DNA of 61,823 bases, filler included, from Kipferlia bialata (taxonomy: Eukaryota): assembly GCA_003568945.1 (NCBI GenBank). It is 3 parts of 2 records of this genome, joined end to end, with 100 filler letters (N's around TTAATTAATTAA, not from the genome) between each part and the next. Parts side by side here need not be neighbours in the genome. Positions count along the whole stretch, not along the records: positions 1 to 31,592 come from BDIP01000105.1; 2 more parts are not named here. The stretch is one strand, 5' to 3'. Below, in pieces: positions 64 through 61,775 of this stretch (position 1 is the stretch's first letter; every line of letters begins with the position of its first letter). The position numbers and the translations under genes were made by a program. Below the pieces are notes generated by a model. The model was not told the origin of the DNA. It made no database searches and worked only from the letters and a program-made list of their open reading frames with translations.

Positions 64-3000
64 CCGAGGCCCTTGTCATGCAGGACGATGTCAACTGCGG
101 CCTATCAGTCATTCTCACAACGGGCACAGACAACAGCATGGTGGTACGCATCCCTCCTTTCTTAGGAAGAGACCTTTCTCTATCACACACACCCACTCTC
201 ACCCCAAGTGGACCACGCCTTGGACCTGTGACGCCAACACAGCCATTGAGTGCCATGGGACTGAGGTGACTACTGTTATAACTACTAGAGTAGATACTGT
301 AGTGTATCATGACTACTTGAATTAGTAGGTACTGGACTGTGGGAGTCACGTCAACCTCTAATCACCTCCATATCCTCTATACAAATAGAATGTATAGAAT
401 ATATACTACATATTCTCTCACCCTAGTGTGTTGTCAGCACCCCTCTGGCCATTGACCCTGACACCGATGTCAACCCAGACCAGGACGTGACGGGGAAGAT
501 CGAGGTCTACTCAGTGGACACGGGTGAGTATGTCTCTCATTTTGATACAGACTACATACAGTATACATACTATATGTAGACTCAATGATAGACTATATAC
601 ACGATACATGATGCTTCCCGAGGCTCAGGTGTGTATTACTCACTATACTACCACTCTCCTCACCCCCCAGGCACAGCAGTCAAGACAGCAACCATATACG
701 GTTACGTCTTCTCTGACGCTGATTTCAAGGTGAGTGTAACGTAATCACCATACCCTCCACCCCAGTCTAGAACCACTGATGTCTCCCAAAGTGTATATAC
801 TAAGTAATGACACAGGGTATTGGTATGGGTGGCTCTCTCTCCTTTGAGGGCGACAGGATTGTGGCCTCTCCCACTCTTGGCCAGACAGGGCCCATCCAAG
901 TGTACGACTCTCTCTCTCTCTCACTCCTTCCTGTAGTAGTTCCTGTCTCACTGGATTCCACACACCCTCTCTCCCTGTCTATTCCCCCTCCTTTCCCAGC
1001 TCTATCCACTATCTACCCTTACAGGTTTGACCGTGCTACCTCAGGGGGTACTGACTGGGTACTCACCGGATTGGCATGGAATGTACGTCCCCCTTTGCAC
1101 CACTTCTCTCTCTCTCATCCAATAGGACTTCACTACATCTGACTACCATTTCTCTCTCTCCCACTCTCTCTCACCAATTAGGACTTCACCGTCTCTGACC
1201 CTGCCTGGAGCACCTATGTCGCATCAGTGGGCAACGACGTGTACTCCTTCTACCCGTACGTGACATGATCTAATCAACCTTCCTTCACAAACTACCCACC
1301 TACACATAGATACTAGTACCTTACATATAACCGCAATATGTATATACGTATGAAATATGTATCTGTGTACCCACCCCAGACAGATGGCTGTCTACGATGC
1401 CGAGACCGATACCTTTGCATCGACAGAGACTGGGGGGGTCATGCAGTACAGACAGGTACCCTAGATACTGTCTATAGTATATATTACAGACGTACTAAGT
1501 ATACATATATACTACATCGAGATATACAATATAGGTAGGTCGGGGGGGGTCATGCAGTACAGACAGGTATATATTGAATACTCAAGTACAGACAGGTACC
1601 CAGTGGTGTAATTGCTATCTATCCTGTATCTTTCTCCTCCCTTGAAACACACACCACTCCTTGCTCGCTCTCTCTCTCCCCCTTGCTAACCCCAGGTCTT
1701 CACCGACTCCCTCTCCATCGACTCTGTGTCACAGGGGGTAGAGGCAGGCAAGGGTTTCACAGGGTCATACCAGCTGACAGACGTCGACGGTGGTATAGTC
1801 CCCAAGGTATCCCTCTCACCTACACCTGACCCTCTACACATCCTGGAATATATACTACGCTGTAATTTAGTACCACCCGTTCTCCATCAAACCAACCCAC
1901 CCCAGACGCTGTCCTCCAACGCCCTCTTCCTGCACAACATATCCTTCTGGACATCAGCAGAGTGGGACGAGGGTACTGAGGGCTACACATTCACTGTGGC
2001 AGAGAGTGACACATGGATGGCAGACGGACCTCAGCAGGTAGTGCTTCACAGTCAGACTCTCTCTCTCATTTACACTCCTTCACACTGTCTTTCAGCACAT
2101 GGTGGCGCCTCTACTCTTCCTTTGTCGACCTACCCCTTTCAGTCTCTCAGTCTCTTTCTCACCCTCACCCCAGGTTGACCTGTACATGGACCTTGTCTCA
2201 GATGACACTGTGGCCCTGCTCTCCGAGGTATATATAGTATATAGTATATAGTATATAGTACACACACACACCTTATCTCCACTGCACTCCACCCTGCACC
2301 ATCTCTCCACCCCCAACCCCAGACTGTCGATGTGTGGGTCTATGTCACAGAGCCCCAGGTCGTTGAGAGCATTGCAGCCTCCCGCCCCCAGGGCGCCATC
2401 CAACTGCTCTCTCCCTCTACCACAGGTATTCCCTCTCTCCCTTCTCTCTCTATCATACGTAGCAGGGATCTGTATTTTTAGGGATCCACATAGTGTTGCG
2501 CTACATATCCCTCACACTAGCTGGTGCCGGTGTGGGTGTCTCCATCTCTGCGGGTACCGATGCCGAGTGGGAGGGGCAGGACGGGGGGGAGCTGCTGGTG
2601 GTAGGGTCTGAGACAGGCCACTGGTACACATACAGCCTCGACGATAGCACAGGTAGGTTACTCCTGTTGGGGTTCGAACTATGTATATATTTATCTGTGG
2701 TTTGCGGTTTCTCCCCAAATATTCGATTCATCATTTTACCCCCCAGGCTTCTACGAGCTCATCAACACAGAGTACGAGGAGGGGTTCGGAGGCACTCTGG
2801 AGATGACCTATCTGGTATGTCTCACTATCGTTGTTTGTACAGTGTATCAGTATTACCCCCTCACCTCCCAGCAGTACTCTGGATGCCTGAGGTCCTTCAT
2901 GGTCATGTCAGACCCAGACTCGAGCAAGGTGAGGCCATATATATACTATACTCCTTATACAATATACTCCAGTATTTACAAATGGGGTGGGTGGGTCTTC

Positions 3001-6000
3001 ATGGTCATGTCAGACCCAGACCCAAGCAAGGNNNNNNNNNNNNNNNNNNNNNNNNNNNNNNNNNNNNNNNNNNNNNNNNNNNNNNNNNNNNNNNNNNNNN
3101 NNNNNNNNNNNNNNNCAATATACTCCACCATATACAAATGGGGTGGGTGGGTCTTCATGGTCATGTCAGAACCGGACTCAAGCAAGGTACAAGCTATATA
3201 TATTTACACTACACTATATACTATATACTACACTATTTACTATTTACTATATACTATACTATTTGCTATTTACTATACTATATACTCATGGGGTGGGTGG
3301 TCTTCATGGTCATGTCAGACCCTGACTCGGGCGAGGTGGGGGTATATTGATATACTATATACTATATATACTACTATACTTTACATACTCCTGGGAAGGT
3401 TGGTGTTTGATATACTCCGTCTCTATCTCGCTCACTACGAGCCCCAGTGGATACATCTGTCTCTATTCCTCTATACATACCTATTCTCTCTCTCACCCCA
3501 GGTGATGCTGAAGGAGTGGGACGAGAACAACCTGGAGTGGGACCTCGTTGACGATACCCTTCTGTCCGATGATCGGTTCACAGACCTGGGGGGGTCTGGT
3601 GAGTAGTATTTGTAGTATGGCAGTGTCGGTATCACCAGGAGACACGAACAGTGGAGAGATGTGGTGATTCCCCCTCACCCCCTATCCTCACCCCCAGTGG
3701 CTATTGGCTGGCCCGGGTGGTACGGCTACTACGCCTTTACCGCGTACTACCTGGACTACCTGATGATCGCTGCATACAACACATGGCCAGGTAGGAACCA
3801 TGTGTGTATCAGTATCTATACTGATACTAATACGATTACCTGGGCCAATTACTGGGACTACTACACACACACCTCTGACGCTAGGCAAGACCACCCCTGA
3901 CACTTCTGTTCCCGACGGATTCGTGTGTGCGTCCATGAAGCCTAGGATATCACTCGGAGGTACAGCCTACTCCATAGCGGCCATAGTATTTACAAATGCA
4001 CAAGATATTCGTATCGTCCCTAACTACACCCTTCTCTCACCTACAGGATCCTATCTGGCCCTCACTGGCGGAGAGGACAGTTACGCCTATGTCATCGACC
4101 TCAGTGACACAGGTAGGGATATAGCTCTCTCTGTTGCTACACCGTCCTCTACACCTTCCTCTACCACTTTCCTTACCTCCAGAGGCTGAGTGGCAGCGTC
4201 TCTACTGCTCCACAGGAACCGTGACAGACGTTGTGGTGTACGAATTGGATCTGGACCAGTGGCCGAAGTACAACATTGGGCTGGGCCTGGTGTCAGATGA
4301 CAGTCCAGACATGAACGGGGATATCACAGGTATGTATATGTGTATGTGTGTGCATGTATATACGGTGATATCATAGGTGCCGCCACATCATCCATCCATA
4401 TACAATAGAGCATGTATACATATATATATCTCACTCGCAGGCACCATCACGATGTACGAGTACTCCAAGGAGTCAACTCCTTTGTATATATACATCTATC
4501 TATATATGTACAGATATATGATATGTAGGTAGGCATGCATTCCTAACCCCCAGGCACCATCACCATGTATGAGTACTCCAAGGAGTCAGCCACCCACGAC
4601 GATGGGTTTGTCTACAAGTCAACTGTCTATGGCCCTGCAGACGCCTTCCCTAACGGGGTATGTACCCCCCTCTCACTCTCTCTTTAGTCTTCCACCCCTT
4701 TCTCACTCAGGATCAGACGTCTGGAATAGCTGCCTGTGAGTTTGTTGACATGAAGAATGAGTACATGACATGTACCTACGCAGATGGACAGAACGGACCA
4801 GCCCTCACGTGAGTACTCTCCTTCGTTCTCTCCCCCCTCCTCTCTCTCTTGCTTATTCTCAGATACCACTATATATATATGTGTATATATATATATGCTT
4901 ACTCCCAGATACCACTAGTACTATGATATATATATATATATATGCTTACTCCCAGATACCACTATGAGGATGCCAACGGAGACTATGAGGCAGACGATAC
5001 GGGAGGCCAGTCATACGTCCTGCAGCATGTGGACTACCCCTTCAGTGTACGTATATATATCTCTCTCATACTACCCTTCGCCGCTCTTTTCTTATAGGTA
5101 CTCTACATATACTTGCGGTATACGTGGATGGCCAGACCACTTTTGATTAGATATCTCCCTCTCTTTCTATCTTGCTCCTACGCTACCCCCTATTCCCTGT
5201 GCTCTTAGTCAGGTTACTTGTACATACTCACTATGTCTTATACCCATCTAATGCCCAACTTATACCCCCCTTATACCCAACTTATACCCCCGTTATACCC
5301 ACCTTATGCCCAGGGTACCCAGGATACCTTTGCCGGAGATGTGGCGAGACTCCATGAGTACACGTTTGTCGCAGATAGGTACCCTTCCCTCCCCCATATT
5401 GTTGCTGTATCTATATGTGTACACTACCCCCACTACGTACCCCTTACCTATATATGTATACATACTACTACTATATAGGTAGGTCCACCTCACCCCAGCA
5501 CAGCCCTCGTTCCTGGCTCCACTACCGCTGCTGGAGGTATGTGTATGTGTGGTAGGTGTATAGTCGCTATAGTATTGATGCTGTAACTGACATACTAGGT
5601 GTGTATGTCATGCGTGATGTCTATGCAGACGAGGCCACTCTCAGTGTGACTGAGTACACTCTGACTGAGGAGGAGGGCACTCTCTCTCTCTCTCTCCTCA
5701 CTGACAAGAGCGACTCCTCTTCCACCCTAACCACACCCCTCCTCGATGGCCAGCTCTGGGTCGAGGTGTACGACTCACAGGGCACCCTCTCCTCAACTGT
5801 GGCCACCTACACATTCGACGAGACTGCCTACACATACACCTTCGACGTGACTATGCCTGTGGTGGCTGGCACCGCTGAGGTCAAGGTGGTACTGGCCGAG
5901 TGGTCGATGCTCGATACCAAGCTAGAGTTTGATGTCAAGATTGACGTCCTGTTCACATCTACAGACATTTCTAGTCTGACCGGTACCTCTACTTGTGGCA

Positions 6001-9795: not shown

Positions 9796-11365
9796 TTACT
9801 CCACAGACCCAGGGAGAGACACCTCCCGTGCTGGAGCCTCCATCGAGACCTCCTCCTGCCCCTGCTCCGCCTCCACACTGGCAGTATCAGTGGGGTTGGC
9901 CTCGAGGTCGTCGGCCTTGGACTCAACGGAGCTGCGTCTGAGTCTCCTGGGCCTGACTGCATCCATGAAGGGAGCCACACCCACCACAGCGTCACCCACA
10001 GTGGGTGAGAGGTAGGTGGCAGCTACCACGGCAACAGGGATAACAGCCACAGCAGCTACCAGCACAAGGCCCCAGATACTGCCACCCTCGACGGTAACAC
10101 TGCCTGAGGTAGGAGTAAGAGAGACAGTGTGCATTAGAGCTTTGGAAGAGAGGTGAAGTAATGGCGTTCAGAGAGAGAGGTGATGAAGTTGGCTCCACTC
10201 TACCTGTGGCAAAGGCGACGCCGTCAATGGCAGCAGAGAGAGAGACGTCTCCCTTGGTAGAGAGTGACGCTGCAGCCTGGTACACAGAGGCAGCAGCCAC
10301 CCAGGCAGCAGGGTGGGCGACACCACCCACTGATAGCACCACGTCACTGGATGCCTCTATCGTGTTGCTGTACTGGTCGACAGGGGACATTGAGACGGTG
10401 AGGGTGTCGCCCTTGTTGGCGACGGCCTGGTGCGACATGGAAGAGAGAGAGGGGTAGACAGGGCCGGCGACAATGGTGACACTTCCCGTCTTGAACTCTG
10501 CTCCTGAAGGTGAGGCAGGAGACCGATAGACCGATAGATGGATAGATAGCTGACAGAGGAGAAGGGTAAAGAGGGCTACAACCAGAGAGAGAAAGAGAGA
10601 GTACCTGACACTCCATCATAGATGACTATAGGCTGCTCTCCAGCTGTGGTGAGGCCTGTAAGGTCAGGACACTCCCACCCCATAACAAAGGAGCCTGGTA
10701 TAAGGGACTGGAGACAGAGAGAGGACGGTTACTATGACAGGGGAGGAAGATAGGAGGGTATAGGTGGGGGAAAGTCCCCTATTGCTAGAGAGTGCCAACC
10801 ACACGTACATGGTGCGGGTGCTGTGTCGTTTGGGAGGCCGATGCTGAAGGAGTAAGGGTCCCTGTGGTCTGGGATGATGAGCACAGTCTCGGGCGAGTAA
10901 GGACTGAACGAGACAGAGACGGCATCCCCGGCAACAGTGGCTGAGGTTTGGATAACGGAGGTTGCGGCATCAGGGACACCGCACTGGGTCTGCACAGTGG
11001 CCTGGGTTAGGTATATACTAGGATACATAAGTATATAGAGAGCCATATATATAGTATCAGGGACACCACACTGGGTCTGCACAGTGGCCTGGGTTAGGGG
11101 TATGAGTATCTAGTACATATATATATGCTAGATACACAAATATATAGAGAGCCACATATAGAGTATGAGGGACACCGCACTGGGTCTGGACGGTGGCCTT
11201 GGCTAAGGAGTATAGATATAGATATACAGATCATATACGGGTATATATATAGAGAGAGCCATATATATTGTATGAGGCACACCACACTGGGTCTGGACGG
11301 TGGCCTGGGGTAATGCGGTAGGGGGGGGGGGAGGGAGAGAGAGAGAGACAGTGGGGATTGCATGC

Positions 11366-11411
<46 letters not shown>

Positions 11412-11425
11412 ATATATACCTATGC

Positions 11426-11468
<43 letters not shown>

Positions 11469-11930
11469 TACATACTTGGTCAATGTACCCGTGAAGGCAT
11501 TCGTCTATACTATATAATGATTATTATATAGTATGTATTATATAGTATACAATATATACCTGGTCAATGTACTCGTGACTCCTGACATAGGCTGCGGCAT
11601 GGAACCCGGTGGCCGAGTTGGGCGTGAAGGTGAAGGAGTATGTCTGGGTGGCATTGTCCCACACTGGAGTTATGGGAGACAAAGAGAGAGGAAGAGAGGG
11701 AGAGAGTACCTGGGGATATGGGATCCTCAGCCCCTACCACATTGGATATCTCAATTGTGAATGTCTCTGGCTCCCCGGCCTGGGAGTTGGGGAGAGAAAG
11801 GGGGGGGGGAGAGAGAGAGAGAGAGAGGGTGGAGGGGGAGAGATGTGCACCTGTGTGTTTGTGGTACTGAGACTGCCTGACCCGTCGTAGTAGGACATGG
11901 TGTTCCCATACTGGTCCTCAAGAGTGACAT
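9796..11930 (-). CDS. Multi-exon type I membrane protein with Ig/filamin-like repeats (5'-truncated)
   Basis: Spliced exons (VTLE)DQYGNTMSYY.. / AGEPETFTIEISNV.. / WDNATQTYSFTFTP.. / ATVQTQCGVPD.. / ..SMSPVDQYSNTI..; TM IWGLVLVAAVAVIPVAVVAATYL; stop at 9796. Confidence 0.7.
10968..11312 (-). repeat. Four tandem copies of 3' splice site + exon start (ATVQTQCGVP)
   Basis: Copies at ~10970-11005 (functional), ~11056-11092, ~11167-11200 and ~11274-11308, separated by AT-rich spacers. Confidence 0.9.
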
Positions 11931-31592: not shown

Positions 31593-31692
31593 NNNNNNNN
31601 NNNNNNNNNNNNNNNNNNNNNNNNNNNNNNNNNNNNTTAATTAATTAANNNNNNNNNNNNNNNNNNNNNNNNNNNNNNNNNNNNNNNNNNNN
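31593..31692. other. Artificial contig-joining linker (44 N + TTAATTAATTAA + 44 N)
   Basis: Six-frame stop linker centred in exactly 100 nt. Confidence 0.95.
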
Positions 31693-32034
31693 AAGCACTC
31701 GGCGGGAGGGGGGGGGGGGGGGGGGAATACACAGACATCACAGACTCTGGGTAGTACGTGTAGATGTACATTTCTATTGACATGTGTTCTCTTTAGTGTT
31801 CTAACCATCAGATGACCCCACCCTCCTTGTTCTGTTCCCATCAGCTACTATTACACTATCACTATACATTATACAGATATATATATGTACATATTAACAG
31901 ATGTATTTGTATGTGTCTCACCCCAGATGACCCCACCCTCCTTGTCCTGTTCCCATCACACTATCATTTTATGATGAATATCTCCGTTTATATATATATA
32001 TGCATGATTTCTTCTCTCTTCTATTAATCCCCAG

Positions 32035-32277
32035 ATGACCCCACCCTCCTTGTTCTGTTCCCATCCGACAACGGTGTGATAGACGCTGACACTGGGGTAT
32101 GTGTAATCGCCAGTGCAAAAGATTGAAAAGAGTCCACACATGTTCCATTACTTATGTAGAATTAGTGTTTACTAATTTGAGTATTGACCTCTAACCCCTT
32201 CAGACCACCAAGAGCAGTGGGTACTACATTGCTGGCGTCCAGGACCTGTTCGACCCCACCATCGGTAAGTCTCTCTA

Positions 32278-32308
<31 letters not shown>

Positions 32309-34540
32309 GTGTGTGTGTATTCAATTATTTATACGTATATACCCTTACCCCCAGGTAACACCGACCTCAACAATGCCTTCAGTGCCGGTCTCAATGAGTT
32401 CCTGTCAGACGATACAGAGGACGGTACGTTTATACACTGAATATACAGTATATTGGTATATATTTAGTAGTGTTTAACTATATATTTACAATTTATGAGT
32501 TCCTGTCAGATGATACAGAGGACGGTACGTTATTACCATATGTATACACTATTTCCACACTCTATGTACACTATTTATATATTTATATATTTCATTATAA
32601 GGTAGTATTGGAATATGTTGGTATCACTTGAGTTTCTGTCAGACACACTGTTTATTGTGATATGATCTCGGTCCTGGATACCCTGACCCCCAGGCTATAT
32701 TATTGTGTATATAGTACAGTATATATAGAGTTGTATAGTATAGTATATGTATATACACTGACCCCCAGGCTATGTGGCCATGATGAACACCCTCTATGGC
32801 CTGGAGGTCGATGTGCCTCTGTACAAGACAATCAGGTATATAAATTTATAATGAATGAGTCATTTATACATAATTATATACATATTTTATAATTATATAT
32901 ATATATAGTTATAAATATGTAATTATGCATTTGTATGTATGTGCCTCTGTACAAGACAATCAGGTACCTCTATTGAATTATTTCAATTATATGTTGTACT
33001 AGCTCTTATACGTTGGCTGTTATGTCAAATACTTCACCTCAAGTATTTCTCAGCGATTGTGTTTGCATTCTCTGCATGCATTTAGCATGTGCTAACATCA
33101 GTGGCTACTGGCCCTCCCTCCTGGATACCCCCACCCAGGGCACACTCAGAATGGCACTGGCCAGACACACAGTACGTGTGGTATTATGAATATTCCGTAT
33201 GTATATGAGTATTCTGTATATGTACCAGTGCAAGGATTTGTGTAGATTGAACCGTCTCTCATTCCAGGCCACCATCGGATACTCTGCTGAGAGCAACCTC
33301 CTCGGAACAACGGCCCTCCCAGGCAAGATTCATGTGTATATGTATATTATTTGACGATGTATAACTATTATTATAGATACTTTCGTTGGTTCGATATGTG
33401 AGTATATGTCCCTCCCGGGTGTACACAATTAGTATGATTAGAATAGTTCCATTGGATAATTGTTATAGTTGTTATCATTGTTATAATTGTTGATACAGGA
33501 AATAGCTGCCATATATTTTACATATAATGGTATGGTATAACACAAAGTCATTAGATTAATTGCTGATACAGGCATTGAGCGCAAGGCCATTGCATACATC
33601 CAGGAGAGGTTCCGCGCACAGTACCTGGTAGCAGACTTCAGGTATACCTTCTCTCTCCCTCTACACCCCTACTACCAACTTTGCCCTCGTTGAGTTCCAT
33701 TGAGGAGATACTGTCTCTCTCTCCCCCTCTACACCCTTATTGTCAGCTTTGCCCTTGCTAAGTTTGCCACCACTACTCTCACTCTCTCTCTCTCTCTCTC
33801 CCTCTACACCCTTATTGTCAGCTTTGCCCTTGCTGAGTTTGCCACCACTCAGGAGATGCTTTCTCTCTGTCTCTNNNNNNNNNNNNNNNNNNNNNNNNNN
33901 NNNNNNNNNNNNNNNNNNNNNNNNNNNNNNNNNNNNNNNNNNNNNNNNNNNNNNNNNNNNNNNNNNNNNNNNNNNNNNNNNNNNNNNNNNNNNNNNNNNN
34001 NNNNNNNNNNNNNNNNNNNNNNNNNNNNNNNNNNNNNNNNNNNNNNNNNNNNNNNNNNNNNNNNNNNNNNNNNNNNNNNNNNNNNNNNNNNNNNNNNNNN
34101 NNNNNNNNNNNNNNNNNNNNNNNNNNNNNNNNNNNNNNNNNNNNNNNNNNNNNNNNNNNNNNNNNNNNNNNNNNNNNNNNNNNNNNNNNNNNNNNNNNNN
34201 NNNNNNNNNNNNNNNNNNNNNNNNNNNNNNNNNNNNNNNNNNNNNNNNNNNNNNNNNNNNNNNNNNNNNNNNNNNNNNNNNNNNNNNNNNNNNNNNNNNN
34301 NNNNNNNNNNNNNNNNNNNNNNNNNNNNNNNNNNNNNNNNNNNNNNNNNNNNNNNNNNNNNNNNNNNNNNNNNNNNNNNNNNNNNNNNNNNNNNNNNNNN
34401 NNNNNNNNNNNNNNNNNNNNNNNNNNNNNNNNNNNNNNNNNNNNNNNNNNNNNNNNNNNNNNNNNNNNNNNNNNNNNNNNCCTTCTACACCCTTTATTGA
34501 TGTTCAGGTGTCTTCTTCTCCCCCTCCGCTGTATCCTCCA

Positions 34541-34575
<35 letters not shown>

Positions 34576-36780
34576 ACCCCTAATCCCTAGGTGTCTTCTT
34601 CTCTCCCTCCGCTGTATCCTCTATCCCCCTATGCCCTGATGCTGGGTGTACCGACACAGAGGAGCTGCTAGAGCTGATCAACATGCCCACATTCACAATG
34701 TGCTAGTACGTGACAACTGTATATACAATTTCATTACACTATAATGGGTTGTGTACTTTCATATATACATATTAACTGGATACATACCATTTGTTACATT
34801 TCAATCAGTTATTTTTTCTTTTATGCGACCCTTACCCCCAGCTATGATGCCAGTGAAATCCCAGCTGTCAACTTCATGCTGGATGCATTCGGTAACGAGG
34901 TGTGTCTAGTACACATATATATAGATTGTGTGAGGGTATATGTGGGTATATCTATATATTATCTTACATGTATGTATACATATAGATATACACATGGCAC
35001 CTGTCAACTTCATGCTGGACGCATTTGGTAACGAGGTGTGTTATGTGTGAGCTATATCCCTATCTGGGTAACTCTCTCTCCCCCTCTCTCTACACCCCAT
35101 TCACTCCAGGATCTCTCCTCCGAGTACTGTGTCAAGACCCTCTGTGACTCAATCGAGGATGCATTCACTAGGACAAAGAACAACGAGGTACTCCTATTTG
35201 TCTAGTAGTTTATGTACCAAACCAAGTATCTCACTGCACTACTTCTTTCATATTGTTGTTCTCTCTCTCCCTCTAAATCCTTATTCTCTCTCTTCACCCC
35301 CAATTCTCTTTCCCTCTACCCCCTTATTCCCAGTGTGACTTTGTCCTGGCAGACACTGTGCTGCTCTCAGCATACAACACGGTGAGTAGTGTTTGTAGAC
35401 ACATATATATACATACATGCAGCTTACAACACGGTGAGTACATTCGCACACACACATATATATATGTATAAGGATAATTATTAGTAAGGAAGTTACATCT
35501 CACCTTAAATTAGATATATAGATTATCACTTGTCTGGCGGGAGATCTCTATGTGTTTCATTGTGGACCCTCTCCCCCCCACCTTCTATCTATCTCTCCCT
35601 CCCGCCTTCTCTAATATCACCCTTAATATCAGGCCTGTCTTGCTGAGAACGACGCCAGTGCCTGTCTGACATACCCAACCACAGACAGGTAAGGAGACGG
35701 TAGTAATGTATGATATATAATATATATATATATATATAATAGTACAGTTGATGAATCATGGTATTCACTTCAAATCCCTATTTCATTTGTCTGTGTGTAT
35801 ACATATGTCAGTGCCTGTCTGACATACCCCACCACAGACAGGTAGGGATATGTTATATGAATGGTATACAGTAGTACATGTACTATATATGTGTAATCAC
35901 ATGTCAGTGCCTGTCTGACATACCCAACCACAGATAGGTAGGGAGACGGTAGTATTGTGTCATATAGAGTTCATTCACACACATATATATTCATATATAT
36001 ACATATATATATATATATATACTCCTTTACGTATCTTACCCCCAGGGAGTACTACACCATCCCAATCAGCGAGTCCAGCGCCCCAGCATTCAGGTTCGTG
36101 TCCCTCTATCTGCCTATCTAGATTCCTCAATCGACCTTGTTATATTATAATTATGAGGCTACGGGAACTCTTTCTCTATATTCTCACTCACTGTCTCTTC
36201 AGTGAGTATCTGTTCACGGTGGCTGTATATTTCTCTCATATCTATTCCTTCTGAGTGCATATGAGTGATTGTCGGTCTCTCTCTTCGGGTCTTATGCCAA
36301 TGATATCTCTTCTCTCTCTCTCTCTCTCTCTCTCTACACCCTTAATTCCAGGCTTGATACTGGTACCACAGAGTCCACCATCGATTTCTTCAGCCTGTCT
36401 TTCAAGACTACCACCGTCTACTTCAGTCTGTCCCTGGTGACACTCGTCTTTGGTCTCACCATTGCCGTAGTAGGTGTGTATATTGCAATGCTTGTGTATA
36501 CACTACATATAGTCACATATATATAATAATTGAATGTAAATAGTAGTAGTTCAGTCTTCAGTACTTCAGTCTGTCCCTGGTGACACTGGTCTTTGGACTG
36601 GCAATTGCCATAGTAGGATAGTACTCTGTGCACAGTAATTGAGTGTGTATACAACTACTGTGTATATGTGCGCTCTTTATATGTTATATGTATGTCTCAC
36701 CCCCAGCTGCGTACTACATCTATGCCTTCTGCTACAAGAAGAACCAGTCCTCCATCCTGTACAGAATAAGGTTCAGATAA
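32035..36780 (+). CDS. Membrane-anchored protein with tandem type 2 periplasmic-binding-protein (SBP_bac_3-like) domains; 5'-truncated, internal gap
   Basis: About 16 exons splice in frame: ..YYIAGV..GNTDLNNAFSAGLNEFLSDDTEDGYVAMMNTLYG..TQGTLRMALARH..GIERKAIAYIQERF..FALAEFATTQEMLSLCL..[gap]..CDSIEDAFTRTKNNECDFVLADTVLLSAY..; TM VYFSLSLVTLVFGLTIAVVAAYYIYAFCY then KK; TAA 36778-36780. Confidence 0.6.
33875..34480. other. Assembly gap (N)
   Basis: N run inside the PBP2-like gene. Confidence 0.95.
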
Positions 36781-36791
36781 AGGGTGTAGAG

Positions 36792-42744: not shown

Positions 42745-43589
42745 TCAATCGTCCTTCCTGGCGTTCCCATATGGGTTGTGTGGAGGTGTGCTTGCCTCCT
42801 CTGCGATGCCCTCTGACATACCCTCTGGGGAGTGTGCATCAGGGGAGGCAGAGAGAGAGAGAGAGGCGGGGGTGGGGGAGGGGGAGGCAGACACGGACTC
42901 CTCAGCCTCAACCTCATCAACCTCTACCTCGCACACTGGTATGTGGGGCATTCTGAGTGACTCTGCGACTCTCTCTCTGCCACTCTTGATGAGTGACTCC
43001 CTCCACTCCCCTAGCAGTCTCTCTGTCTGCCCCTCTACACCCTTATGCCCCCTGGCAAACATGGCGGCATGGGCCTCCTGCCCACTCTGCTCCATCACAC
43101 GCAGACAGCCGGGGGCATCGCCTGGGGGTGAGTGTATGGGTATACTAAACAGTATATATCTATATCTACTATATGTATAAAATGCATATACCCCACCTAT
43201 CTGATACAAGCAGAGGAATGCTATGTTGTATGCCCCCTCTGCCCATATATAGACTATTTTCCATATATTCTATATATACCATACATACTATACCATATAC
43301 AAACTATATACCCACCTGTCTGATAGAGACATAGGAATGCTATGTTGTATGCCCCCTCCTCCTCTGCCTGTGAGGCCAGGTGGGTCAGACCGTCAGTGTC
43401 CTCAGTCACACTCAGGATGGTCAGGGCGCTGCCATAGTCCTGGGGTTAGTAAACATAGATCCACTAAACCCATAGTCCTGGGGTTGATGTATATAGATAG
43501 AGAGGGAGTGTGTCTGTGTGTGTGAGAGAGAATGACAACTCAGGATGGTCAGGGCGCTGCCATAGTCCTACAGTGAGGTATATATGTAT

Positions 43590-43631
<42 letters not shown>

Positions 43632-46600
43632 TCATATCACTCAGGATGGTCAGGGCGCTTCCATAGTCCTGGGGTTGTTGTATAGATATATATATATATA
43701 GTCACTATTTATAAACACCAACCTTAGTTGCTATGTAGCACTGCACCGCCACCCCATCGATATATATACAATATACAAAACAGTACAGTATACATATCTG
43801 TATTAACATGTTCCACTAACCTTTGTGGCTATGTAGCACTGCACCGCCACCCCCATGGCCCCGTGGTCCAGGGCACGCTTGGCAAGGGTAGGGTAGGAGC
43901 CTGGGGGTAAGGAAGTGGGGGAGTGAGCGCCAGTACATGTACTGTATACACATATATATATATAATACACACCTGTGAGCCCCTCTGTCTGCAGCAGTGC
44001 CAGGGCATCAGAGTATCTGTGGAGCTGACTCAGCAGACTGAGACCCAGGGCGGGGGAGGGGCTGAGAGCCAGGGCCTGAGGTCAGGTAGAGTATGGATTC
44101 ACTCGCATAATAGATATATACCACCCTGTACAATATACATCACCATGCCTCCGTCGGCATGTCCCTCTCCTGTATGTACTGTGCCACTCATATACCATAC
44201 CATACACTATACATATACATATATATATAAGAATAGGATACACACCTCTGCGAGCATGCCCCTGTCCTGCATGTACTGTGCCACCTGGTCCCTCACTGAG
44301 ACAGTCTCAGAGGACACGAGGGTGGAGGCCTCACTAATCTGGGGGTCAGAGAGAGGAGAGGGAGGGAGGGAGAGAGATATGACGCCTCACAGAACTAGTA
44401 GTAAGGAGGGCACATGCACACACTTTCAAGATATCACATGAACATCCCCTACCTTCCCGCCCTCAATCAGTGAGTATGCCTGCATCTGCCTTCCATTCAC
44501 AGACACAGTGGTCACAGAGCCATCCTTGGCAAGAAGCACACACCTGGGGTGAGGGATATATGTATGTATGCACATACATACTGTATACTGCACACCCACC
44601 TGTCCTGGCAGAACCCGAGCAGCGTGTCCTCTGCCTTGACCCCCCTCCTCACTGTGTGCCTATCCACATACTCCTCTGCGTCGTGCATCCTCTGGGCATA
44701 CTCAGGCACCACATGGTGCAGACCCCCAGTCGATGCATCGATGAAGTGCAGCACCCCGTGGAACCATGCCGCACTGGAGACAGCGTAGGGCAAGGCAGCC
44801 ACCAGCTCGAGTGCCCCCTCCACCCCCTCCTCCCCCACATCCTCACCCTTGGCCGTGGCAGAGGCTATCACGCCCAGGTCACTCTGCATGATGTAGGTGG
44901 TGTCCTCGGTGGATATGGACAGGAGGGGGGTCCTGGGGGAGAAGACTACGCCCTCAGCCACAACGTTGATCTGCTGCACAAAGGCGCCCTGGGTCAGGGT
45001 ATTTATGTAATGGATGCAAACACACTTGTGATCACGAGCTGATGTAGGTTATATAATCAATCGTAGTATCGTAGACCCCTTACACAATATTCTTCTAGTA
45101 CAGCACTCCCTACCTGCCACGTGAAGAAGTCCAAGAAGTCTGGTCCCCTGACACACAGGAGAGGGCCACCAAAGACAGCCTGGGGTGAGGTATATACAAT
45201 AGTGATAGATGTACAAACACACATACACTCATACACAGTATAGAGGGGGCCGCCAAAGACAGCCTGGTGGAAGACAAGAACAGTAGAGAGAGAGAGATAC
45301 AATATAATCCACCCTCTTATATCCCTACCTCAGCTGGATAGTCGAGTGCCAGCTGCTGTGCTGTGTCTGGGGATGCCCCTGTGAGTATGGACACAGACCC
45401 TCCCTCAAGCACAGCCAGGTCCTGGTGCTTGGGGTCATGCCTGGGGGGTGAGGGATATACACGATAGTACACATATATATAGTATAATTACTTGTATAAC
45501 ATATATACACATATATAATAATATATACAGCAAGGTCCTGGTGCTTGGGGTCATGCCTGGGGGTGAGGGTACATGGATATCTGTACACAACTACAATGTG
45601 GTTCAATATAAACATGGACTATGTATGTTGCCATATGGCCAGACCCACGTACATGGGTGATACTTACAAACAACTCTATGTAATGTGTGTGGGTACCTCC
45701 TGCCTCTGCTGCCCTGCCATGATACCCTCCGCACTACAGTATAGACATACTAACACTGTATATATATACACACACTATATATACATACATATCCATACCT
45801 CCACGCTGTCTGCTGTCCTGCGATGTACCCCTTCTGCATATACACACACTCTCTCTCCCCCCTATTATATATATATATATATATATATCAGTGTACACAC
45901 CTCCATGCTGTCTGCTGCCCTGCCATGTACCCCTTCTGCTTCCAGGACAGGGTGGAGTACACAACGACCTGGCGAATTAGCTATACATGGATATATATTA
46001 ATATGTCTACATATACATATATCTATATATATAGAGAGAGAGACACACATCTGGACAGGGTGGAGTACACAACAACCTGGGGGGTCAGCTATACATAGGT
46101 ATGTTGATATGTATACATACATATATATATATATATGAGTATCAGTATAGACTGACACACTCATATGGACAGGGTGGAGTACACAACTACCTGGGGGGTC
46201 CGTCATTGATGATATATATATATAAGTAGATATAAGAATAAGTATATGTATATACTGTCACACACTCATATGGACAGGGTGGAGTACACTACTACATGGG
46301 GGGTCAGTGGATACCTATGGAAGAGAAGATTCTCGAAACGGCATATTCACAAATACTGATACTAATCACATATCCACCATACCCACCTCGTTGTCATGGA
46401 CCACCGAGCACAGCCTGCCATTGGGGGACATCTCAACCTGGGGGTCAGAGTCAACATGAGTACACTATACCCTACACTACTCTATGTATATCAGTATTCT
46501 GGATACTATACATACCTGCTGCACCCCTGCCACTGACAGCTGGTCCAGGGCCCTGACAGAGTGCAGGGTGCCTGTGTCAGCGGAAGTGTCAGTATCCATC

Positions 46601-49330
46601 CATGATATATACAATATAGATACTATTCAATAGTATCAGTAGCTGCATACATATATATATGGTGTATAGTATGGACACTGACAGAGTGCATGGTACCTGT
46701 CTCCCCAGTGGGTGCAGTGCCCTTGGACCCAGGAGAGGGATGGCCGGCACCAACAAGCATGCCTAGCATGAGGGTATATATGTAGATATATATATGTATG
46801 TATGTGTCATTATATATCTAGTTTCAGGGGTGGCCGGCACCAGCTAGCATGCCTGGGGGTGAGCAGTGGAAGTGAATCATGCACATATGTGGATATGGTA
46901 TATACACATCCATACCTTGCACCAGCCCCTGCTGACTAGGGGTGATGGTGGGCTCTGCTCCCCCAGCCACAGCGGAGAGGGTGCCGGCAAACACCATGCG
47001 GCCAGTCCTAGGGGGTGAGGGGAGGGGGGGTTATGGTGAAAATACATGATCACACAGATATATATCATTATTAGTGCTCTTCCCCTACCTCTGGTCGAGT
47101 GATGCCAGTGGTCTGTCCAGGCCCAGCTGTACCACGACACACCCCGTGTCCCCACCTATCACTATCCGGTTGGAGGAGTGATCAGCCTCCACACACCACA
47201 CGCGGCCTAAGGTGAGGAGGGTAAGCGGTATATATGTAACAGTACGTGCATATACATGTATTCTAGACATAGAATGAGTGATAAGCCTCCACGCACGGCC
47301 CGGAGTGAGGGTTTATGCGTCCATATCTGATTACTACTTTACACTACATGCAAATGAACTTACCCAACTATATGTCTGCATGTCTTGTCCAACTCCATTC
47401 ACACACATATATATATATATATATATATAATCCGAGATATACTTGTAGTAATATCCAATACATACTCACCCAGCTTGTGTCTGCATGTACATATGTATAT
47501 AATTATTAATACAAATACTCACCCAGCTTGTGTCTGCATGTCTTGTCCAGGGCCAGGCCCTCCCCAGAGACAAGGCCTACCAGGCCATCCTCAGAGCCTG
47601 GGGGGTGAGGGTATATAAATAATATATCGATAGAGAGATACTATTGTGTGTATATCTACGCCCACCCATACCTGTCACCATGCACTCCATAGTAGCAACA
47701 CCAGTGGGCTGGAATATTCTGTAATCTCTATATATCCCTCTATCTCAATATCTCTTTATATATACACCCCTACCTGACACCATGCAGCCCATCCTAGCAT
47801 GGTATGCGAGGCATGTCACGTTGTCTGTGTGGACTGGGATGGTACGGAGGGCAGAGCGCGTGGCAGTGTCCCAGATCTTGACGGTCCTGAAATATGAACA
47901 TATACTAGTATAGACATGGACACATACTGATACATACATATATACATTTCTATATAGTAGAAGAACGAGTGGCTGTGTCCCTGATCTTGACGGTCCTGAT
48001 ACATAAGAACACACCTGTATACGTATACATACATATTCATACACCCACATACCTGTCATCACTGCCCGATGCCACATAGACTGTGCTGCCACTGGACAGG
48101 TAGCACACAGCGTTGCAGTCTGCAGTGTGGCCCTTGAGGGTGTAGAGGGGGCCAAACACACCCTCATTAGGGGTGTAGTGGCCGGCATACACCTGGGGGG
48201 TTAGTTGGTATCAAAATATCCAATATTCAGAATTAGTATTTGACAATACTACACAATATAACAGTACCTTCGTACTCTGCCTTGTGGGCCCTGTCTCTGT
48301 GACCCCCCACAATGTATATGTACTATTGTATAATATAATATTACACATCACTATATACTGCAGTGGTTGTACCTTCGTGCTCTGCCTCGTGGGCCCTGTC
48401 TCTGCCACCCCCCACACCTTGACCGTCCCGTCCAGTGAGGCAGAGGCCAGGGAGGCACCATCTGGACTGAGGGCTAGGGCCATGGCATACCGGGTGTGGC
48501 CCTCGTAGATGCGAAGACAGGCCTAGGGTCAGTTGGGTATATATAGGTGGGTGGATGGATAGATGGATAGAGAGAGAGAGAGAGAGAATATGACACTGCG
48601 GGTGTGGCCCTCATAGATGCGGAGGCAGGCCTGGGGTGAATAAGTGTATACACTTATACACAAACAAACAAGAGACACACCTCTGCTGTACCCTTGTTTG
48701 GTAGTCCCACCCCACTTACATAATATATACATTCAGTGTTAAATCATATGTATGTATACTGAGTATACATACACCCTACCTTTGTCTGGTAGTCCCACAC
48801 CCTGATAGTTGCGTATAACAATAATTACTCCATGTATATAATTATATATTGAAATATGAATACATATATATATACTGTTACCTTTGTCTGGTAGTCCCAC
48901 ACCCTGATGGTGGTGTCTAACAATAAAGACTCTGTACATATATTTGTATATATATATATATATATATTAATGTATGAATACATATACGGTATATACACCA
49001 TACCTTTGTCTGGTAGTCCCACACCCTTATGGTGGTGTCATCTCCACAGGACACAAGCCACTTCTGGTCAGGGAGGACAAGCAGGGCCCTGGGGATAAGC
49101 ATGGTGTATCAAATACTAAACACAAAATTAGATATGGGATATACACATAGATGCTTCTGATCAGGAAGGACAAGGAGGGCGCTGGGTTAGTTACAGATAC
49201 ACACTCACTCATACGTATACATAAAGAGGGAGATAAGAAGGACACATAAACCGTACCGGATGTAGTCTGTGTGTGCCTGCCACATGCCCACCCTGGCCTC
49301 GGTGGAGTAGTCATACAGCCTGGGGTTAGA

Positions 49331-49371
<41 letters not shown>

Positions 49372-49998
49372 GGTATACATATACACTCCATACCATAGGT
49401 CATAACACTAAATTCTACACAATACTGGTATGATAATGAAAGTCAAGAGTATATCTATCCACCCCTACCTAATAGTACCAGTCGTCACAAGACACAAATA
49501 GAATATGTACTTCTATACACAGTAGTATCCAGCATATAATACATCTATCTCTACCCTCCATACCTGATGTATCCATCGTCACTGCCAACAGCCAGGGTGT
49601 CTGTGCCGGGGATGAACCTGGGGTGAGTATATACATATAGAGAATGTATCTGAATATATGATTATATGTAAGTCTGTACCGGGTCAAGGTGTCAGAGAGG
49701 GGTATGTGTACATGCACTGATGGCAGCTATTCAGACTCCAGCCCATACCTCACTCTGACTTGGTACACAGTCATATACATTTACATATATATACTCCTAT
49801 ACCCATACCTCACTGCCCTGATTGGATAGACTGCCATATGATAGGTGTACATATCTACCTACACAAATGAATATTTACCTATATATAAATATATATACAT
49901 ACATGTTTGTCCCTACCTCACTGCCCTGATTGGGTATACTGTCACGTCCAGCTGCTTGGCAACCAGACCAGTCGACACATCGTAGATCACAACATCAC
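42745..49998 (-). CDS. COPB2: Coatomer subunit beta-prime (WD40 + coatomer WD-associated region); extreme N-terminus beyond linker
   Basis: Exons GDVVIYDVSTGLVAKQLDVTVYPIRAVR / FIPGTDTLAVGSDDGYIR / LYDYSTEARVGMWQAHTDYIR / ..SCGDDTTIRVWD.. / YEGHTRYAMALAL..ASASLDGTVKVW / YTLKGHTADCNAVCY..ASGSDDR / RVWCVEADHSSNRIVIGGDTGCVVVQLGLDRPLASLD match Sec27/beta-prime-COP order; stop at 42745. Confidence 0.9.
48690..49040 (-). repeat. Four copies of exon end + 5' splice site (..IRVWDYQTK|GT) in COPB2
   Basis: cctttgtctggtagtcccacaccc at ~49003 (functional), ~48881 and ~48779, plus a degenerate copy at ~48691. Confidence 0.9.
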
Positions 49999-57273: not shown

Positions 57274-60200
57274 TCAGTCTCCAAGGGGGTTCCCAATGAC
57301 CTTGAGGGCGTGGTCCACAGCAGCCCTGCCCCTGAGGGATTAGAGATATAGGATATACTCAACAGATAGAGACAGAGAGAGAGAGAGAGATAAGAAGGCT
57401 GATCATATATATATGTTATATGGTATTGAATATTTATACCCACCTCTTGTTGGGTCCGAGTCCATTGGGGTCGCCGCTGAGCTCAGACAGAGAGCCCTCA
57501 AGGCTAGGGGTGAGAGGGACTCAGAAACCTTGCTCTACTCCTTGTATTTACACTGCACACCTCTGCCTGGCCTGTTCACGTACATACGCCTGTAGCGTAT
57601 TAAATGAATTTACATAAGTGCGTATATACAGCATACCTCTGCCTGGCCAGTGCCAGTCTCTCCAGGGCCTTGTTCACAACATCGAGGGTGGCAGTGACCT
57701 CGCCTGGGTTAGAGTGAGCATATAGAGTATCTAATATATACAGTACAATATGTGAGTGTGTACACCGAGGTACCCACCTACAGACACTGACTCTGGTACC
57801 GATGGGGGCAGGGGCACGGGCTGGGCCTCACACAGGATGGCGGCACCAGACATCTGGGTGCTGGGGGTGAGGGGGAGAGAAAGGGTGGAGAAACAATACC
57901 GACCCAGACACGATGAGGGGGAGAGAGTGACACATACTCACCCTGAGGCCTCAGGTACAAACTCAGGCTCGTGTGCTCTGTATCCTGGGATCAGAGTAGA
58001 AGAGAGAATTCAAGTATGTTATATCTGGAATAAGAGGAAGAGAGGCGGGTGGAGTCAAAGACTCATATCATTGTTATTGTAACGGAGACGGCAGAGGTAA
58101 TGAATGTGACCAACACATCTATACTATATATATATATATACTCTGCAAAATCATGACTACTTAATGATCTATACCTGTGAAGTGTGGGACCGGGGGCATC
58201 TCTGTGAAGAATGCCCACCTCATGAGTCTGGTCTTGGCCACGGCTGAGGGGTGGGGGGTGGCAGAGCCCTGGGGTCAGTACTCTCAGAAGTGAGTATTGT
58301 ATACATATATGCATTATATATGTATATATACATATCACAAATACAGGACACTGAGGGGTGGGGGGTGGCAGAGCCCTGGGGTCAGTACTCTCAGAAGTGA
58401 ATATTGAATACATAGATGCATTATATATGTATATATATATATCACATATACAGGCCACTGATGGGTGGGGGGTGGCAGAGCCCTGGGGTCAGTGCTCACA
58501 AGGGTAAAGATTGTATACATATATACATTATATACGTATATATACATATCACATATGCAGTACACTGATGGGTGGGGGGTGGCAAAGCCCTGGGGTGAGG
58601 GTATATGAATAGAGAGTCATATTCTTATACTAATTAGTATCATGATCCATGATACTATTGAACATATGGCCAAGGGATACAGGGGTCTGCCTACGTACAC
58701 GTATACACATCTGCTCATCCTACCTTGGATGGGACAGGGGGTGGGGCACCTCCCATGGGCATGGGGCGGGGGGTGGCCTGGAGGGTGAAGGAAAGAGAGA
58801 GGGGGAGAGAGAATGCATTAAACCCACCACATATACTTGTATATGTTTACACTTGTATATGTTTATACCTGAGGCTTCGGCTTGGGAGTGGGCTTGGGCT
58901 TAGTAGCAGGCTTGGGGGTTGGCTTGGGCTTGGCCGCTAGTGGTGAGAGTGTACTATACACTGTACTAGAGAGTCTACAGTGTATACGACACCCACCTGG
59001 CTTAGGCTTTGTGGCGGGTGTTGGCTTGGCGCTAGGCTTGGGCTTGGGGGTGGGCTTAGGGGAGGGCTTAGGCTTGGGGGTAGGCACGGGCTTGGCCACT
59101 GGGTGTTAGTGGATCTACTAAACATGAAGAGCTGTACATTGATACATATCAATTACCTGGCACTGCTGCTGTGGGCAGAGGGGGTGGTGGGGGTATGGCC
59201 CCTCCCTTGGGTGCGTGTGTCTTGGGCGTGAAGGCAGGGGCAGGCAGGGTGGCCGGCTTGACGGTCTTGCGGGGCTTGGCACGGGGCTTGGGCTTGGGCT
59301 GCACAAGCTGGCGAATTAGCGACACATATCTATTATATAGGGTATATACTGTGTTCATGATGGGCTATACCTTCACCACATTGGGCTTTGGCTTGGACAC
59401 AGGCTTGGGGGTTGGCTTAGAGACAGGCTTGGGGGCCGCTGGGGCAGGCTTGGGTGCTGGCTTGGTGTCTGTAGGTGAGGGATGTACTACATAGTATACT
59501 GATATATTGGAATATTACACACACCATTGGTATCCTCCCCCTCAGCATGTCCAATATACTATTATATATATATTATATCTCTAAATATACAACTATATCT
59601 ACCCATACCTCCCAGGGGGTTGTTCATGGGTATCCTCCCCCCCTCCACCCAGTGTGTCCAATATACTTTCCCTCTCCCTCTCTATATATATACACCACAT
59701 ACCTCCCATTGGGTTGTTCATGGGTATCCTCCCCCCCAGCATGGCTGCGATGTCAGCCACTCTAGACGCAGAGGCCTCTCTCTCCATGCCCCCACTCTCT
59801 CTCTCTCTCTCTCCCTCCCTCTCCCTAGAGCTCGGTCTGCTCTTGGCCTTGGGGGCAGAGGAGGCACCTGGTAGGATGGGGGCGGACTGGGGGTTAGTTA
59901 CTAATGTATATATATATATACAATATACCACGGGATAGAAGTGTGACTAGGTATACACACATGTTGATACTGGCAGGATGGGGGTAGACTGGGGGTCAGT
60001 TACTAAGAGGAATGTAACCAGGAGTTAATAAGATACTTGCTGAGGGACATATGATACTATGATAAGAATAAGCCCTGGTAGGATGGGGGCGGACAGGGGG
60101 TGAGATATATACAGAAATAATACCCCATAGGATAGAAACAAGACAATATATATGGGGATAGGCATAATGGTGACACTGGAGGATAGAGGAGGACTGGGTG

Positions 60201-61452: not shown

Positions 61453-61775
61453 GTGTGTATGGGATTGTATGCATATATGTGTGTGTGTGCGTGTATGTTT
61501 ATATAAGTACTGCACAGGGCAATGCTCGAAGAGGCAGGTATGTATGGGAGTGTGTGTTGCGTTACATTATCCATATGGAGAGATATCCATATGGCTACGT
61601 CTATGCTGATGATTGGAACTTGGTATAGGAGGGATATGATATTTGTGCATATGAGTGTTGAGTAGTAGGTGGTGATTTGCGGTATAGCATCCTATATATA
61701 CTGTCTTTGGGATATATGCGTGATTACGGTATTGTAACACACTCCTATTCAGCCAGGATCAAGTGTCGGGTATCC

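What the first reader, a model, noticed from the sequence alone, without database searches (positions are those of the whole stretch)
2890..3340. Polarity rule of splice-junction duplications: decoy donors follow the real donor, decoy acceptors precede the real acceptor
Seen: after the real exon end (..TCAGACCCAGACTCGAGCAAG|GT at 2929) three further exon-end+G(T) copies occur at ~2995, ~3152 and ~3300. Conversely, acceptor+exon-start copies precede real exons (4858/4905/4951; 31810/31925/32034; 43435/43560/43660; 45950-46300; 58245-58596; 59975/60080). Copies nearly always straddle a splice junction and are ~15-40 nt of exon. Many decoy acceptors keep an intact branch-point+CCCAG. Inference: the spliceosome must skip intact proximal acceptors or use them recursively, and this duplication could drive intron lengthening or intron gain.
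Basis: partly seen in the sequence, partly recalled or inferred. Interest (0 to 1): 0.8.

Follow-up and report, generated by a model that had tools for sequence, protein, structure and literature searches.

The report
Introns stuffed with borrowed splice junctions
In the free-living protist Kipferlia, about a quarter of the introns examined hold spare copies of a neighbouring exon edge and its splice signal, and these copies differ from the working exon mostly at silent codon positions, so they were likely copied from other working versions of the gene, which would be a record of genetic exchange in a group where sex has never been observed.

Summary
The window is Kipferlia bialata. There are 60 copies of an exon edge in 35 of 147 intron stretches; none has reversed polarity, and permuted controls give no polar hits. 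The polarity 'rule' is not a new splicing law. It follows from tandem geometry plus selection, and such structures are known as amphioxus 'mirages' and human F7-type minisatellites. One RNA-like contig joins the first donor to the last acceptor across five decoy-bearing introns. Recursive splicing is not supported.

Of 85 copy-versus-exon differences, 68 lie at third codon positions (pN/pS about 0.11; a neutrally decaying copy gives at least 0.5). Decoys also differ from each other at third positions (18 of 21). Decoy acceptors keep a valid but different branch point plus AG (19 of 26, 4.5 expected), while the intron sequence beyond is nearly unrelated. So the copies diverged while each was under coding and splicing constraint. 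Best reading (0.6): exon edges captured from diverged alleles by recombinational repair. No second haplotype was available to test this. Each unit adds about 100 nt of intron, and one intron looks newly born by duplication.

The parts
2872..2928 (+). Working exon of the focal array (gene KIPB_000843, a large protein with one predicted membrane segment); real donor GT at 2929
   Evidence: same junction in the public annotation P0122
2997..3031 (+). Donor decoy 1: last 34 exon nt + G, cut by an N gap
3032..3115 (.). Assembly gap whose flanks are 66/72 identical; copy number uncertain
3153..3188 (+). Donor decoy 2 (34 exon nt + GT)
3302..3337 (+). Donor decoy 3 (34 exon nt + GT)
3490..3501 (+). 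Real branch point + acceptor of the focal intron
1543..1597 (+). Two donor decoys of exon 1380-1455
4427..4475 (+). Acceptor decoy of exon 4554; valid but different branch point; 2 of 2 differences synonymous
4845..4922 (+). Two short acceptor decoys (period 47) of exon 4956; below the score threshold, not counted
11056..11494 (-). One donor decoy then three acceptor decoys in one intron (real acceptor 11002)
31798..31957 (+). Two acceptor decoys of exon 32035; spanned by one DNA contig
32424..32768 (+). Intron with donor decoys (32495-32525, degenerate 32629) and an intact short acceptor decoy (AG at 32692-32693); spliced first donor to last acceptor in the RNA-like contig
32836..33101 (+). 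Intron with donor decoy 32939-32965; first donor used
34900..36045 (+). Three introns with four donor decoys (35001, 35420, 35809, 35905); RNA-like record length fits first-donor use exactly (288 nt)
36562..36616 (+). Longest decoy (55 exon nt); GT lost
42796..49998 (-). beta'-COP gene (KIPB_000854): 28 decoys in 16 of 23 intron stretches; model identical to the annotated protein over 865/865 aa
46572..46696 (-). Candidate intron born by exonic duplication: intron start repeats the next exon's start (16/18) behind a shared ACAG
45969..46386 (-). Three acceptor decoys with graded decay (intact, branch point lost, AG lost)
48523..49003 (-). Three donor decoys then one acceptor decoy
43440..43820 (-). 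One donor decoy, two counted acceptor decoys and one short one
58269..58723 (-). Three acceptor decoys, period 107; the clearest whole-unit tandem array (intron parts 94, 82 and 62% alike)
59469..60107 (-). Two donor decoys and two acceptor decoys around exon 59886-59703
61509..61539 (+). Donor decoy of exon 61327-61452

Best explanation
These are roughly 100-nt tandem duplications of one exon-intron border (about 30 nt of exon plus about 75 nt of intron) that differ from the working exon mainly at silent sites, and they likely arose when recombinational repair copied the border from a diverged allele of the same gene, pushing the older border into the intron as a predicted inert decoy. Inferred steps: a broken end pairs with another haplotype through the only shared sequence, the exon; synthesis runs past the splice site into the unrelated intron; the ends rejoin without trimming, or an unequal crossover gives the same product. 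Shown: only units holding exactly one junction are found, which fixes the polarity. Inferred: selection removed the others. Shown for one gene: the major RNA uses the first donor and last acceptor. Inferred: the spliceosome chooses sites across the exon, so half-exons are ignored. The copies have no function of their own; they lengthen introns and may rarely seed a new one.
For: Third-position bias: 68 of 85 differences; 64 synonymous, 21 non-synonymous, no stop; pN/pS 0.10-0.12. Four-fold sites differ at 45/285, zero-fold sites at 18/1035. Simulated neutral decoy with a fully constrained exon (transition bias, CpG x5, same detection): synonymous share 0.43 on average, at most 0.61 in 600 runs, against 0.75 observed. 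The bias holds with shared changes counted once (59/21), in beta'-COP alone (32/13), without the focal gene (58/19), in the RNA-checked gene (13/2), for donors (33/16) and acceptors (31/5), and without CpG changes (48 of 68). Decoy-versus-decoy differences: 18 of 21 at third positions. Splice signals were not used in detection, yet GT is kept in 25 of 26 donors (12.8 expected from the local mismatch rate) and branch point + AG in 19 of 26 acceptors (4.5 expected), although they differ from the real site at about 4 of 12 nt. Identity falls from about 95% on the exon side to near background a few nt into the intron. The decoy farthest from the exon is the more damaged in 10 arrays against 2, with 3 ties. 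In 5 of 5 introns with both kinds, donor decoys come first, so no pseudo-exon is framed. beta'-COP has a single cluster member and no listed relative above 34% identity, and some codons show three synonymous states, so more than two templates are needed. Context from papers: fornicates lack NHEJ and Rad51A and have two Dmc1 (PMC8516963, passages); human minisatellites mutate largely by inter-allelic SDSA (PMC2599865, passages); amphioxus, where mirages were described, is highly heterozygous (PMC3087553, passages).
Against: No second allele was seen: two metagenome scans found no relative, and the laid contigs list no other letters (contigs drop rare variants). Intron parts are far more diverged (median 56% gapped identity; 4 of 45 clearly above random) than four-fold sites (16%), so faster intron turnover or constrained synonymous sites must be added. 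Forcing all 60 copies ungapped to the junction lowers the synonymous share to 85/151 (56%, p 3e-4), because 8 old, indel-shifted copies add many non-synonymous columns. The tight period (49 of 59 between 76 and 128 nt), the cap on the exon part (1 of 60 above 45 nt against 48% expected) and the clustering by gene (16/23 against 0/15, 0/13, 0/12) are not explained. The data are one 62-kb window. Reading frames come from my models, checked against the public annotation for two genes and against RNA for one.
Confidence: 0.6

Rival explanations
1. Self-duplication with second-order selection: units arise from the same chromosome, and frequent expansion and contraction move them in and out of the working position, so harmful changes in decoys are purged without any second allele.
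For: Needs no sex. Mirage arrays are length-unstable and evolve in concert in amphioxus (PMC3087553, passages). One array has whole-unit similarity of 82-94%.
Against: Exchange frequent enough to purge non-synonymous changes should also homogenise or delete units. Most intron parts are near random and four-fold sites differ by 16%. No DNA joint that skips a unit is among the joints listed (13 not shown). The rate argument is my inference.
Confidence: 0.14
2. The template is a second gene copy kept in the same cell (permanent heterozygote, second nucleus or hidden paralogue), transferred by mitotic repair; no outcrossing is needed.
For: Gives the same synonymous signature. The focal gene's 3' part is annotated on two further contigs.
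Against: beta'-COP, the richest gene, has one cluster member and no close paralogue, and the bias holds there alone. No other letters are listed in the laid DNA or RNA contigs. The extra copies of the focal gene are identical to my model over 1184 aa.
Confidence: 0.11
3. Decoys are functional: used as alternative or recursive splice sites and kept by selection on the protein product or on regulation.
For: Decoy sites score as well as or better than the real ones in 12 of 26 acceptors and 16 of 26 donors; coding-type conservation. Some human pseudo-sites are used (PMC1557585, Introduction).
Against: The RNA-like contig skips them in five introns. A half-exon has no partner site that would put it in frame. 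There is no GT enrichment for recursion (3 of 17 against 19 of 139). Far copies decay. Minor isoforms cannot be seen in contigs.
Confidence: 0.08
4. Plain slippage duplication from the same chromosome followed by neutral decay.
For: Explains the polarity, the junction enrichment and the age gradient.
Against: Predicts a synonymous share of at most about 0.43 and random damage to splice signals; both are rejected. Predicts similar decay on both sides of the junction; not seen.
Confidence: 0.05
5. Assembly artefact: allelic or paralogous reads joined head to tail; the period is close to a 100-nt read length.
For: Median period 105. The focal array contains a gap with near-duplicate flanks. True alleles would show the same synonymous bias.
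Against: Separately assembled contigs of the DNA run, up to 1409 nt laid, cross five arrays with no other letters at depths of 394-460. Copies show graded decay, with lost AG or branch point.
Confidence: 0.02

Closest known systems
Amphioxus 'mirage' minisatellites (Adh3, troponin C, globins BflGb6/BflGb9, PGBD5); PMC3087553 and PMC3902484, passages read; the original Adh3 paper was not held
   Same: Tandem units spanning one exon-intron border at either end of an intron; many keep AG/GT; splicing is undisturbed; proposed as a route to intron gain; found in a species with highly diverged alleles.
   Different: Here in a metamonad protist and at high density (35 of 147 intron stretches; 28 copies in one gene). 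Intron parts are mostly unalignable rather than 81-100% alike, the period is tight near 100 nt, and divergence is of coding type. The word 'synonymous' does not occur in the globin paper's main text.
Human minisatellites whose first unit spans a donor (F7 IVS7, CBS, 6-16, LAMIN B2, PDGF); PMC1557585, abstract and Introduction
   Same: Repeated donors follow the real one; the most upstream site is used only or mainly.
   Different: Isolated loci with many near-identical units; donor side only in that text; little exon sequence in the F7 unit (4 bp).
Intron gain by tandem duplication of an AG|GY site (Rogers model; ATP2A1), PMC3265369, abstract only
   Same: Intron 46696-46572 begins with a copy of the next exon's start behind a shared ACAG.
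   Different: One candidate in 139 introns; no outgroup gene structure to show the intron is new. The other 59 copies only lengthen existing introns.
Inter-allelic SDSA mutation of human autosomal minisatellites (MS32, MS205, CEB1); PMC2599865, passages
   Same: Proposed mechanism: non-reciprocal transfer of repeat units between alleles.
   Different: There it acts on existing arrays; here it would found arrays from a single-copy exon edge. Not shown here.

Membership tests
Mirage (exon-intron border tandem duplication) | Repeat unit spans an exon-intron border and lies head to tail beside the real border | tested here: met
   52 of 61 hits reach the junction, 8 more lie within 16 nt, 0 are anti-polar
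Mirage (exon-intron border tandem duplication) | The whole unit, intron part included, is recognisably repeated | tested here: inconclusive
   Clear in 4 of 45 copies (z>3), 8 of 45 at z>2; above background only in the first ~8 intron nt for the rest
Mirage (exon-intron border tandem duplication) | Copies keep splice signals yet normal mRNA is made | tested here: met
   GT 25/26, AG 23/26; RNA-like contig uses the outer sites in five introns of one gene
Mirage (exon-intron border tandem duplication) | Copy number varies between alleles or cells | not testable with these tools
   No second isolate found
Recursive splicing (ratchet point AG|GT) | The acceptor is followed at once by a regenerated GT donor | tested here: not met
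   3 of 17 junctions with decoy acceptors against 19 of 139 exons in general
Mutually exclusive or duplicated whole exons | The copy carries both an acceptor and a donor | tested here: not met
   At least 23 nt of the exon is always missing from the copy; no anti-polar hit
Rogers-type intron gain (intron 46696-46572) | Direct repeat at intron start and next exon start, containing AG|GY | tested here: met
   16/18 matches; next best 8 among 139 introns
Rogers-type intron gain (intron 46696-46572) | Intron absent from orthologues of close relatives | not testable with these tools
   No close relative's gene structure available
Inter-allelic capture | Copy-versus-exon divergence has the pattern of two functional alleles | tested here: met
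   pN/pS 0.10-0.12; valid but different splice signals
Inter-allelic capture | Decoy variants occur as working alleles elsewhere in the species | not testable with these tools
   No other isolate found

The most novel reading that the evidence does not exclude
Kipferlia introns are an archive of other alleles. Recombination between highly diverged haplotypes keeps swapping in new exon edges and parks the old ones in the intron. A single genome would then record population diversity (about 16% at four-fold sites) and hidden sex in metamonads, show cross-exon splice-site choice in a protist with 100-nt introns, and catch intron growth and birth in the act.
Probability: 0.5. Interest if true: 0.82.

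Novelty: new variant of a known kind. Interest (0 to 1): 0.7.

Why it matters
[quoted passage not shown] Decoys that are samples of other working alleles would be direct genomic evidence of exchange, measurable genome-wide from one public assembly with about 125,000 introns (PMC5874029, passage). The arrays are also thousands of natural splice-site competition experiments. Short introns are expected to pair the closest sites across the intron (PMC9225289, passages), yet the outer sites are used here, in an organism with a reduced spliceosome (87 of 174 proteins; PMC6679479, passages). They also give a concrete engine of intron lengthening (roughly a quarter of intron bases in this window) and a place to look for new introns.

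Tried and rejected
No whole genome was held, so all counts come from this window. Reads could be laid only on 31740-38200; the focal array and beta'-COP have no read evidence and rest on the public annotation. No run is on record as RNA; X2 is treated as RNA-like because it skips GT..AG introns that the DNA run keeps. Bins without X2 cover over some decoys (31740-31955) were not used as evidence. Two metagenome scans found no relative (13 and 58 pattern hits, none confirmed). The beta'-COP search listed no close homologue or paralogue among the best 120 of 1819 hits. Intron-only repeats of similar size outside arrays were few and weak (about 3 at score 11, plus an 11-mer array at 5237-5312), and exon-only repeats were short, mostly codon-multiple. 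I do not count the intron-only deficit as evidence for targeting, because such copies would be hard to detect. No decoy lies beside an exon over 200 nt (0/39 against 40/247, p 0.002), but this is not significant within decoy-bearing genes (p 0.21), so it is not used as proof of exon definition. An idea that donor decoys carry their own upstream acceptor was checked only by eye and did not hold in most cases. Short decoys under the score threshold and three probable decoys of an exon hidden in the gap 33875-34480 were left out of all counts. The interior hit in gene E was dropped; intron 46696-46572 is among the 60 but left out of the splice-signal and period counts. My early note that the N-spacer at 50219-50318 separates scaffolds was wrong: the annotated beta'-COP gene crosses it. 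Literature: searches listed no paper on such duplications in Kipferlia or on synonymous bias in mirages; I judged most hits from listings. The genome paper's main text has no 'duplicat', 'tandem', 'allel', 'ploid' or 'heterozyg'. No supplements were read, and subscription papers are not covered.
Full report
Setting. The window is Kipferlia bialata DNA: an exon at 44602-44988 (minus strand) matches KIPB_000854, beta'-COP, at 100%, and the focal gene is KIPB_000843. I built 16 gene models or fragments with open frames and 139 complete introns. The beta'-COP model equals the annotated protein over 865 of 865 residues. The focal gene's model matches 1587 of its 1588 residues, with one 11-residue gap away from any decoy and a different C-terminus. 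Introns without copies have a median length of 99.5 nt and end in a branch point fused to the acceptor; 119 of 143 match TNAY-n1-4-HAG.

The observation. At the focal site the last 34 nt of exon 2872-2928 recur at 2997, 3153 and 3302, each followed by G or GT. An N gap with 66/72-identical flanks lies inside the array, and the gene's 3' part is annotated on two more contigs, so the exact copy number here is open. Across the window, a scan of 147 intron stretches against their flanking exons, using exon letters only, found 61 matches. Of these, 52 reach the adjoining junction, 8 end 6-16 nt from it, 1 is a chance interior hit and none is anti-polar. Permuted exons give no polar hits. Copies lie in 35 of 147 stretches, very unevenly: 16 of 23 in beta'-COP, 8 of 16 in the gene at 31800-36800, and none in three genes with 15, 13 and 12 introns. 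Contigs of a DNA run cross five arrays without a differing letter.

Polarity. A tandem unit holding an exon end, a donor and part of the intron necessarily leaves the first copy attached to the exon; the mirror case holds for acceptors. Dropping random units of the observed size on these genes gives 48% detectable single-junction, 20% exon-only, 10% intron-only and 17% two-junction products. Only the first class is found. Loss of the exon-only and two-junction classes by selection is inferred, and intron-only copies would mostly be invisible at the divergence measured below. The rule is therefore a survivor pattern, already described as 'mirages' in amphioxus (PMC3087553 and PMC3902484, passages) and at human F7 and other loci (PMC1557585, abstract and Introduction).

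Splicing. One 2290-nt contig of an RNA-like run joins 32423 to 32769 and 32835 to 33102, and its coordinates leave exactly the 288 nt of five exons between 34705 and 36352. It thus uses the first donor and last acceptor across five decoy-bearing introns, including past a decoy acceptor whose last 12 intron nt equal the real one. Contigs hide minor isoforms. Decoy sites are not simply weak: they score at least as well as the real site in 12 of 26 acceptors and 16 of 26 donors. Recursion is not indicated (3 of 17 against 19 of 139 exons start with GT), and donor decoys precede acceptor decoys in 5 of 5 mixed introns. Choice of the closest sites across the exon would give this result, whereas short introns normally favour the closest sites across the intron (PMC9225289, passages). 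That this organism defines exons is inferred; decay of mis-spliced RNA is an alternative.

The unexpected part. In 1590 aligned nt the 60 copies differ from their exons at 85 positions: 68 third, 11 first and 6 second codon positions; 64 synonymous, 21 non-synonymous, no stop; pN/pS 0.10-0.12. Four-fold sites differ at 15.8%, zero-fold sites at 1.7%. If a copy decayed neutrally while the exon accepted only silent changes, the synonymous share would be about 0.43; 600 simulations never exceeded 0.61, and 0.75 is observed. The bias persists in every subset tried and without CpG changes. Where two or more decoys cover a site, 18 of 21 differences among them are at third positions. Against this, forcing all copies ungapped to the junction lowers the share to 56%, still above the null, because eight old copies carry indels or heavy decay. 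The splice signals give a second, independent sign. Decoy acceptors differ from the real one at about 4 of 12 nt yet remain valid in 19 of 26 cases (4.5 expected), and donors keep GT in 25 of 26 (12.8 expected). Beyond the signals, similarity drops to near background: 4 of 45 intron parts are clearly above random. Both copies therefore diverged while each was under protein and splicing constraint. Only one copy per array works in this genome, so they most simply worked in different gene copies.

Mechanism. beta'-COP appears single-copy and some codons show three silent states, which points to population alleles rather than one paralogue. I infer repair between haplotypes that share exons but not introns: pairing through the exon, synthesis about 75 nt into the intron, and rejoining without trimming, or an equivalent unequal crossover. 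The new border takes over and the old one is pushed inward, consistent with greater damage in the far copy (10 arrays against 2, 3 ties). Fornicates lack NHEJ and Rad51A and keep two Dmc1 genes (PMC8516963, passages), and inter-allelic SDSA drives human minisatellite mutation (PMC2599865, passages); these make the model plausible but do not test it. No second haplotype could be found. Unexplained: the tight period (median 105, 49 of 59 within 76-128 nt), the cap on exon length copied (median 29, 1 of 60 above 45 nt), the excess divergence of intron parts, and the clustering by gene.

Consequences. Introns with copies have a median of 234 nt against 99.5, and each copy adds about 100 nt; copies make up roughly 5,100 of 20,791 intron bases. 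One intron, 46696-46572, starts with a 16/18 copy of the next exon's start behind a shared ACAG, where the next best of 139 introns has 8. This is the pattern expected of intron birth by duplication (PMC3265369, abstract), but it is untested without an outgroup.

Verdict. The feature is real, and the polarity rule is ordinary. The density in a protist and the allele-like divergence of the copies were not found in ten literature searches (supplements not read). New variant of a known kind; interest 0.70; allele-capture explanation 0.6.

Noticed in passing
window 46572-46696 (-): Intron whose first 20 nt repeat the next exon's start behind a shared ACAG; candidate de novo intron from exonic duplication.
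   Followed up: partly
window 33323-33571 (+); 15763-15650 (-): GC-AG introns in two models. The first is consistent with bin depths of the RNA-like contig by my hand count; the second is only predicted.
   Followed up: partly
window 3502-8550 (+): The 3' three quarters of the focal gene is annotated with an identical protein on two other contigs (GIQ81236.1, GIQ82927.1): recent gene copies or assembly redundancy.
   Followed up: partly
window 33650-33868 (+): Three copies (period about 70) of an acceptor plus about 30 exon-like nt, probably decoys of an exon hidden in the gap 33875-34480.
   Followed up: no
window 5237-5312 (+): About seven tandem copies of an 11-nt unit resembling the branch-point/acceptor motif, ending in the real acceptor.
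   Followed up: no
window 37054-39598 (-): Gene with 13 modelled exons, mostly 81-84 nt and all phase 0, each looking like one leucine-rich repeat (label recalled, not scanned); six exons are covered by an RNA-like contig; no decoys.
   Followed up: no
window 31593-31692 and 50219-50318: N-flanked TTAATTAATTAA spacers. The first falls at the end of a 31,592-nt record; the second is crossed by the annotated beta'-COP gene.
   Followed up: partly
window 57260-60100 (-): Gene with long proline/lysine-rich exons (formin-like by recall, not tested) carrying 8 decoys.
   Followed up: no
window 11002-11559 (-): Real exon plus three decoys show all four combinations at two variable sites, as recombination would give; one of the sites is a CpG, so recurrence is possible.
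   Followed up: partly
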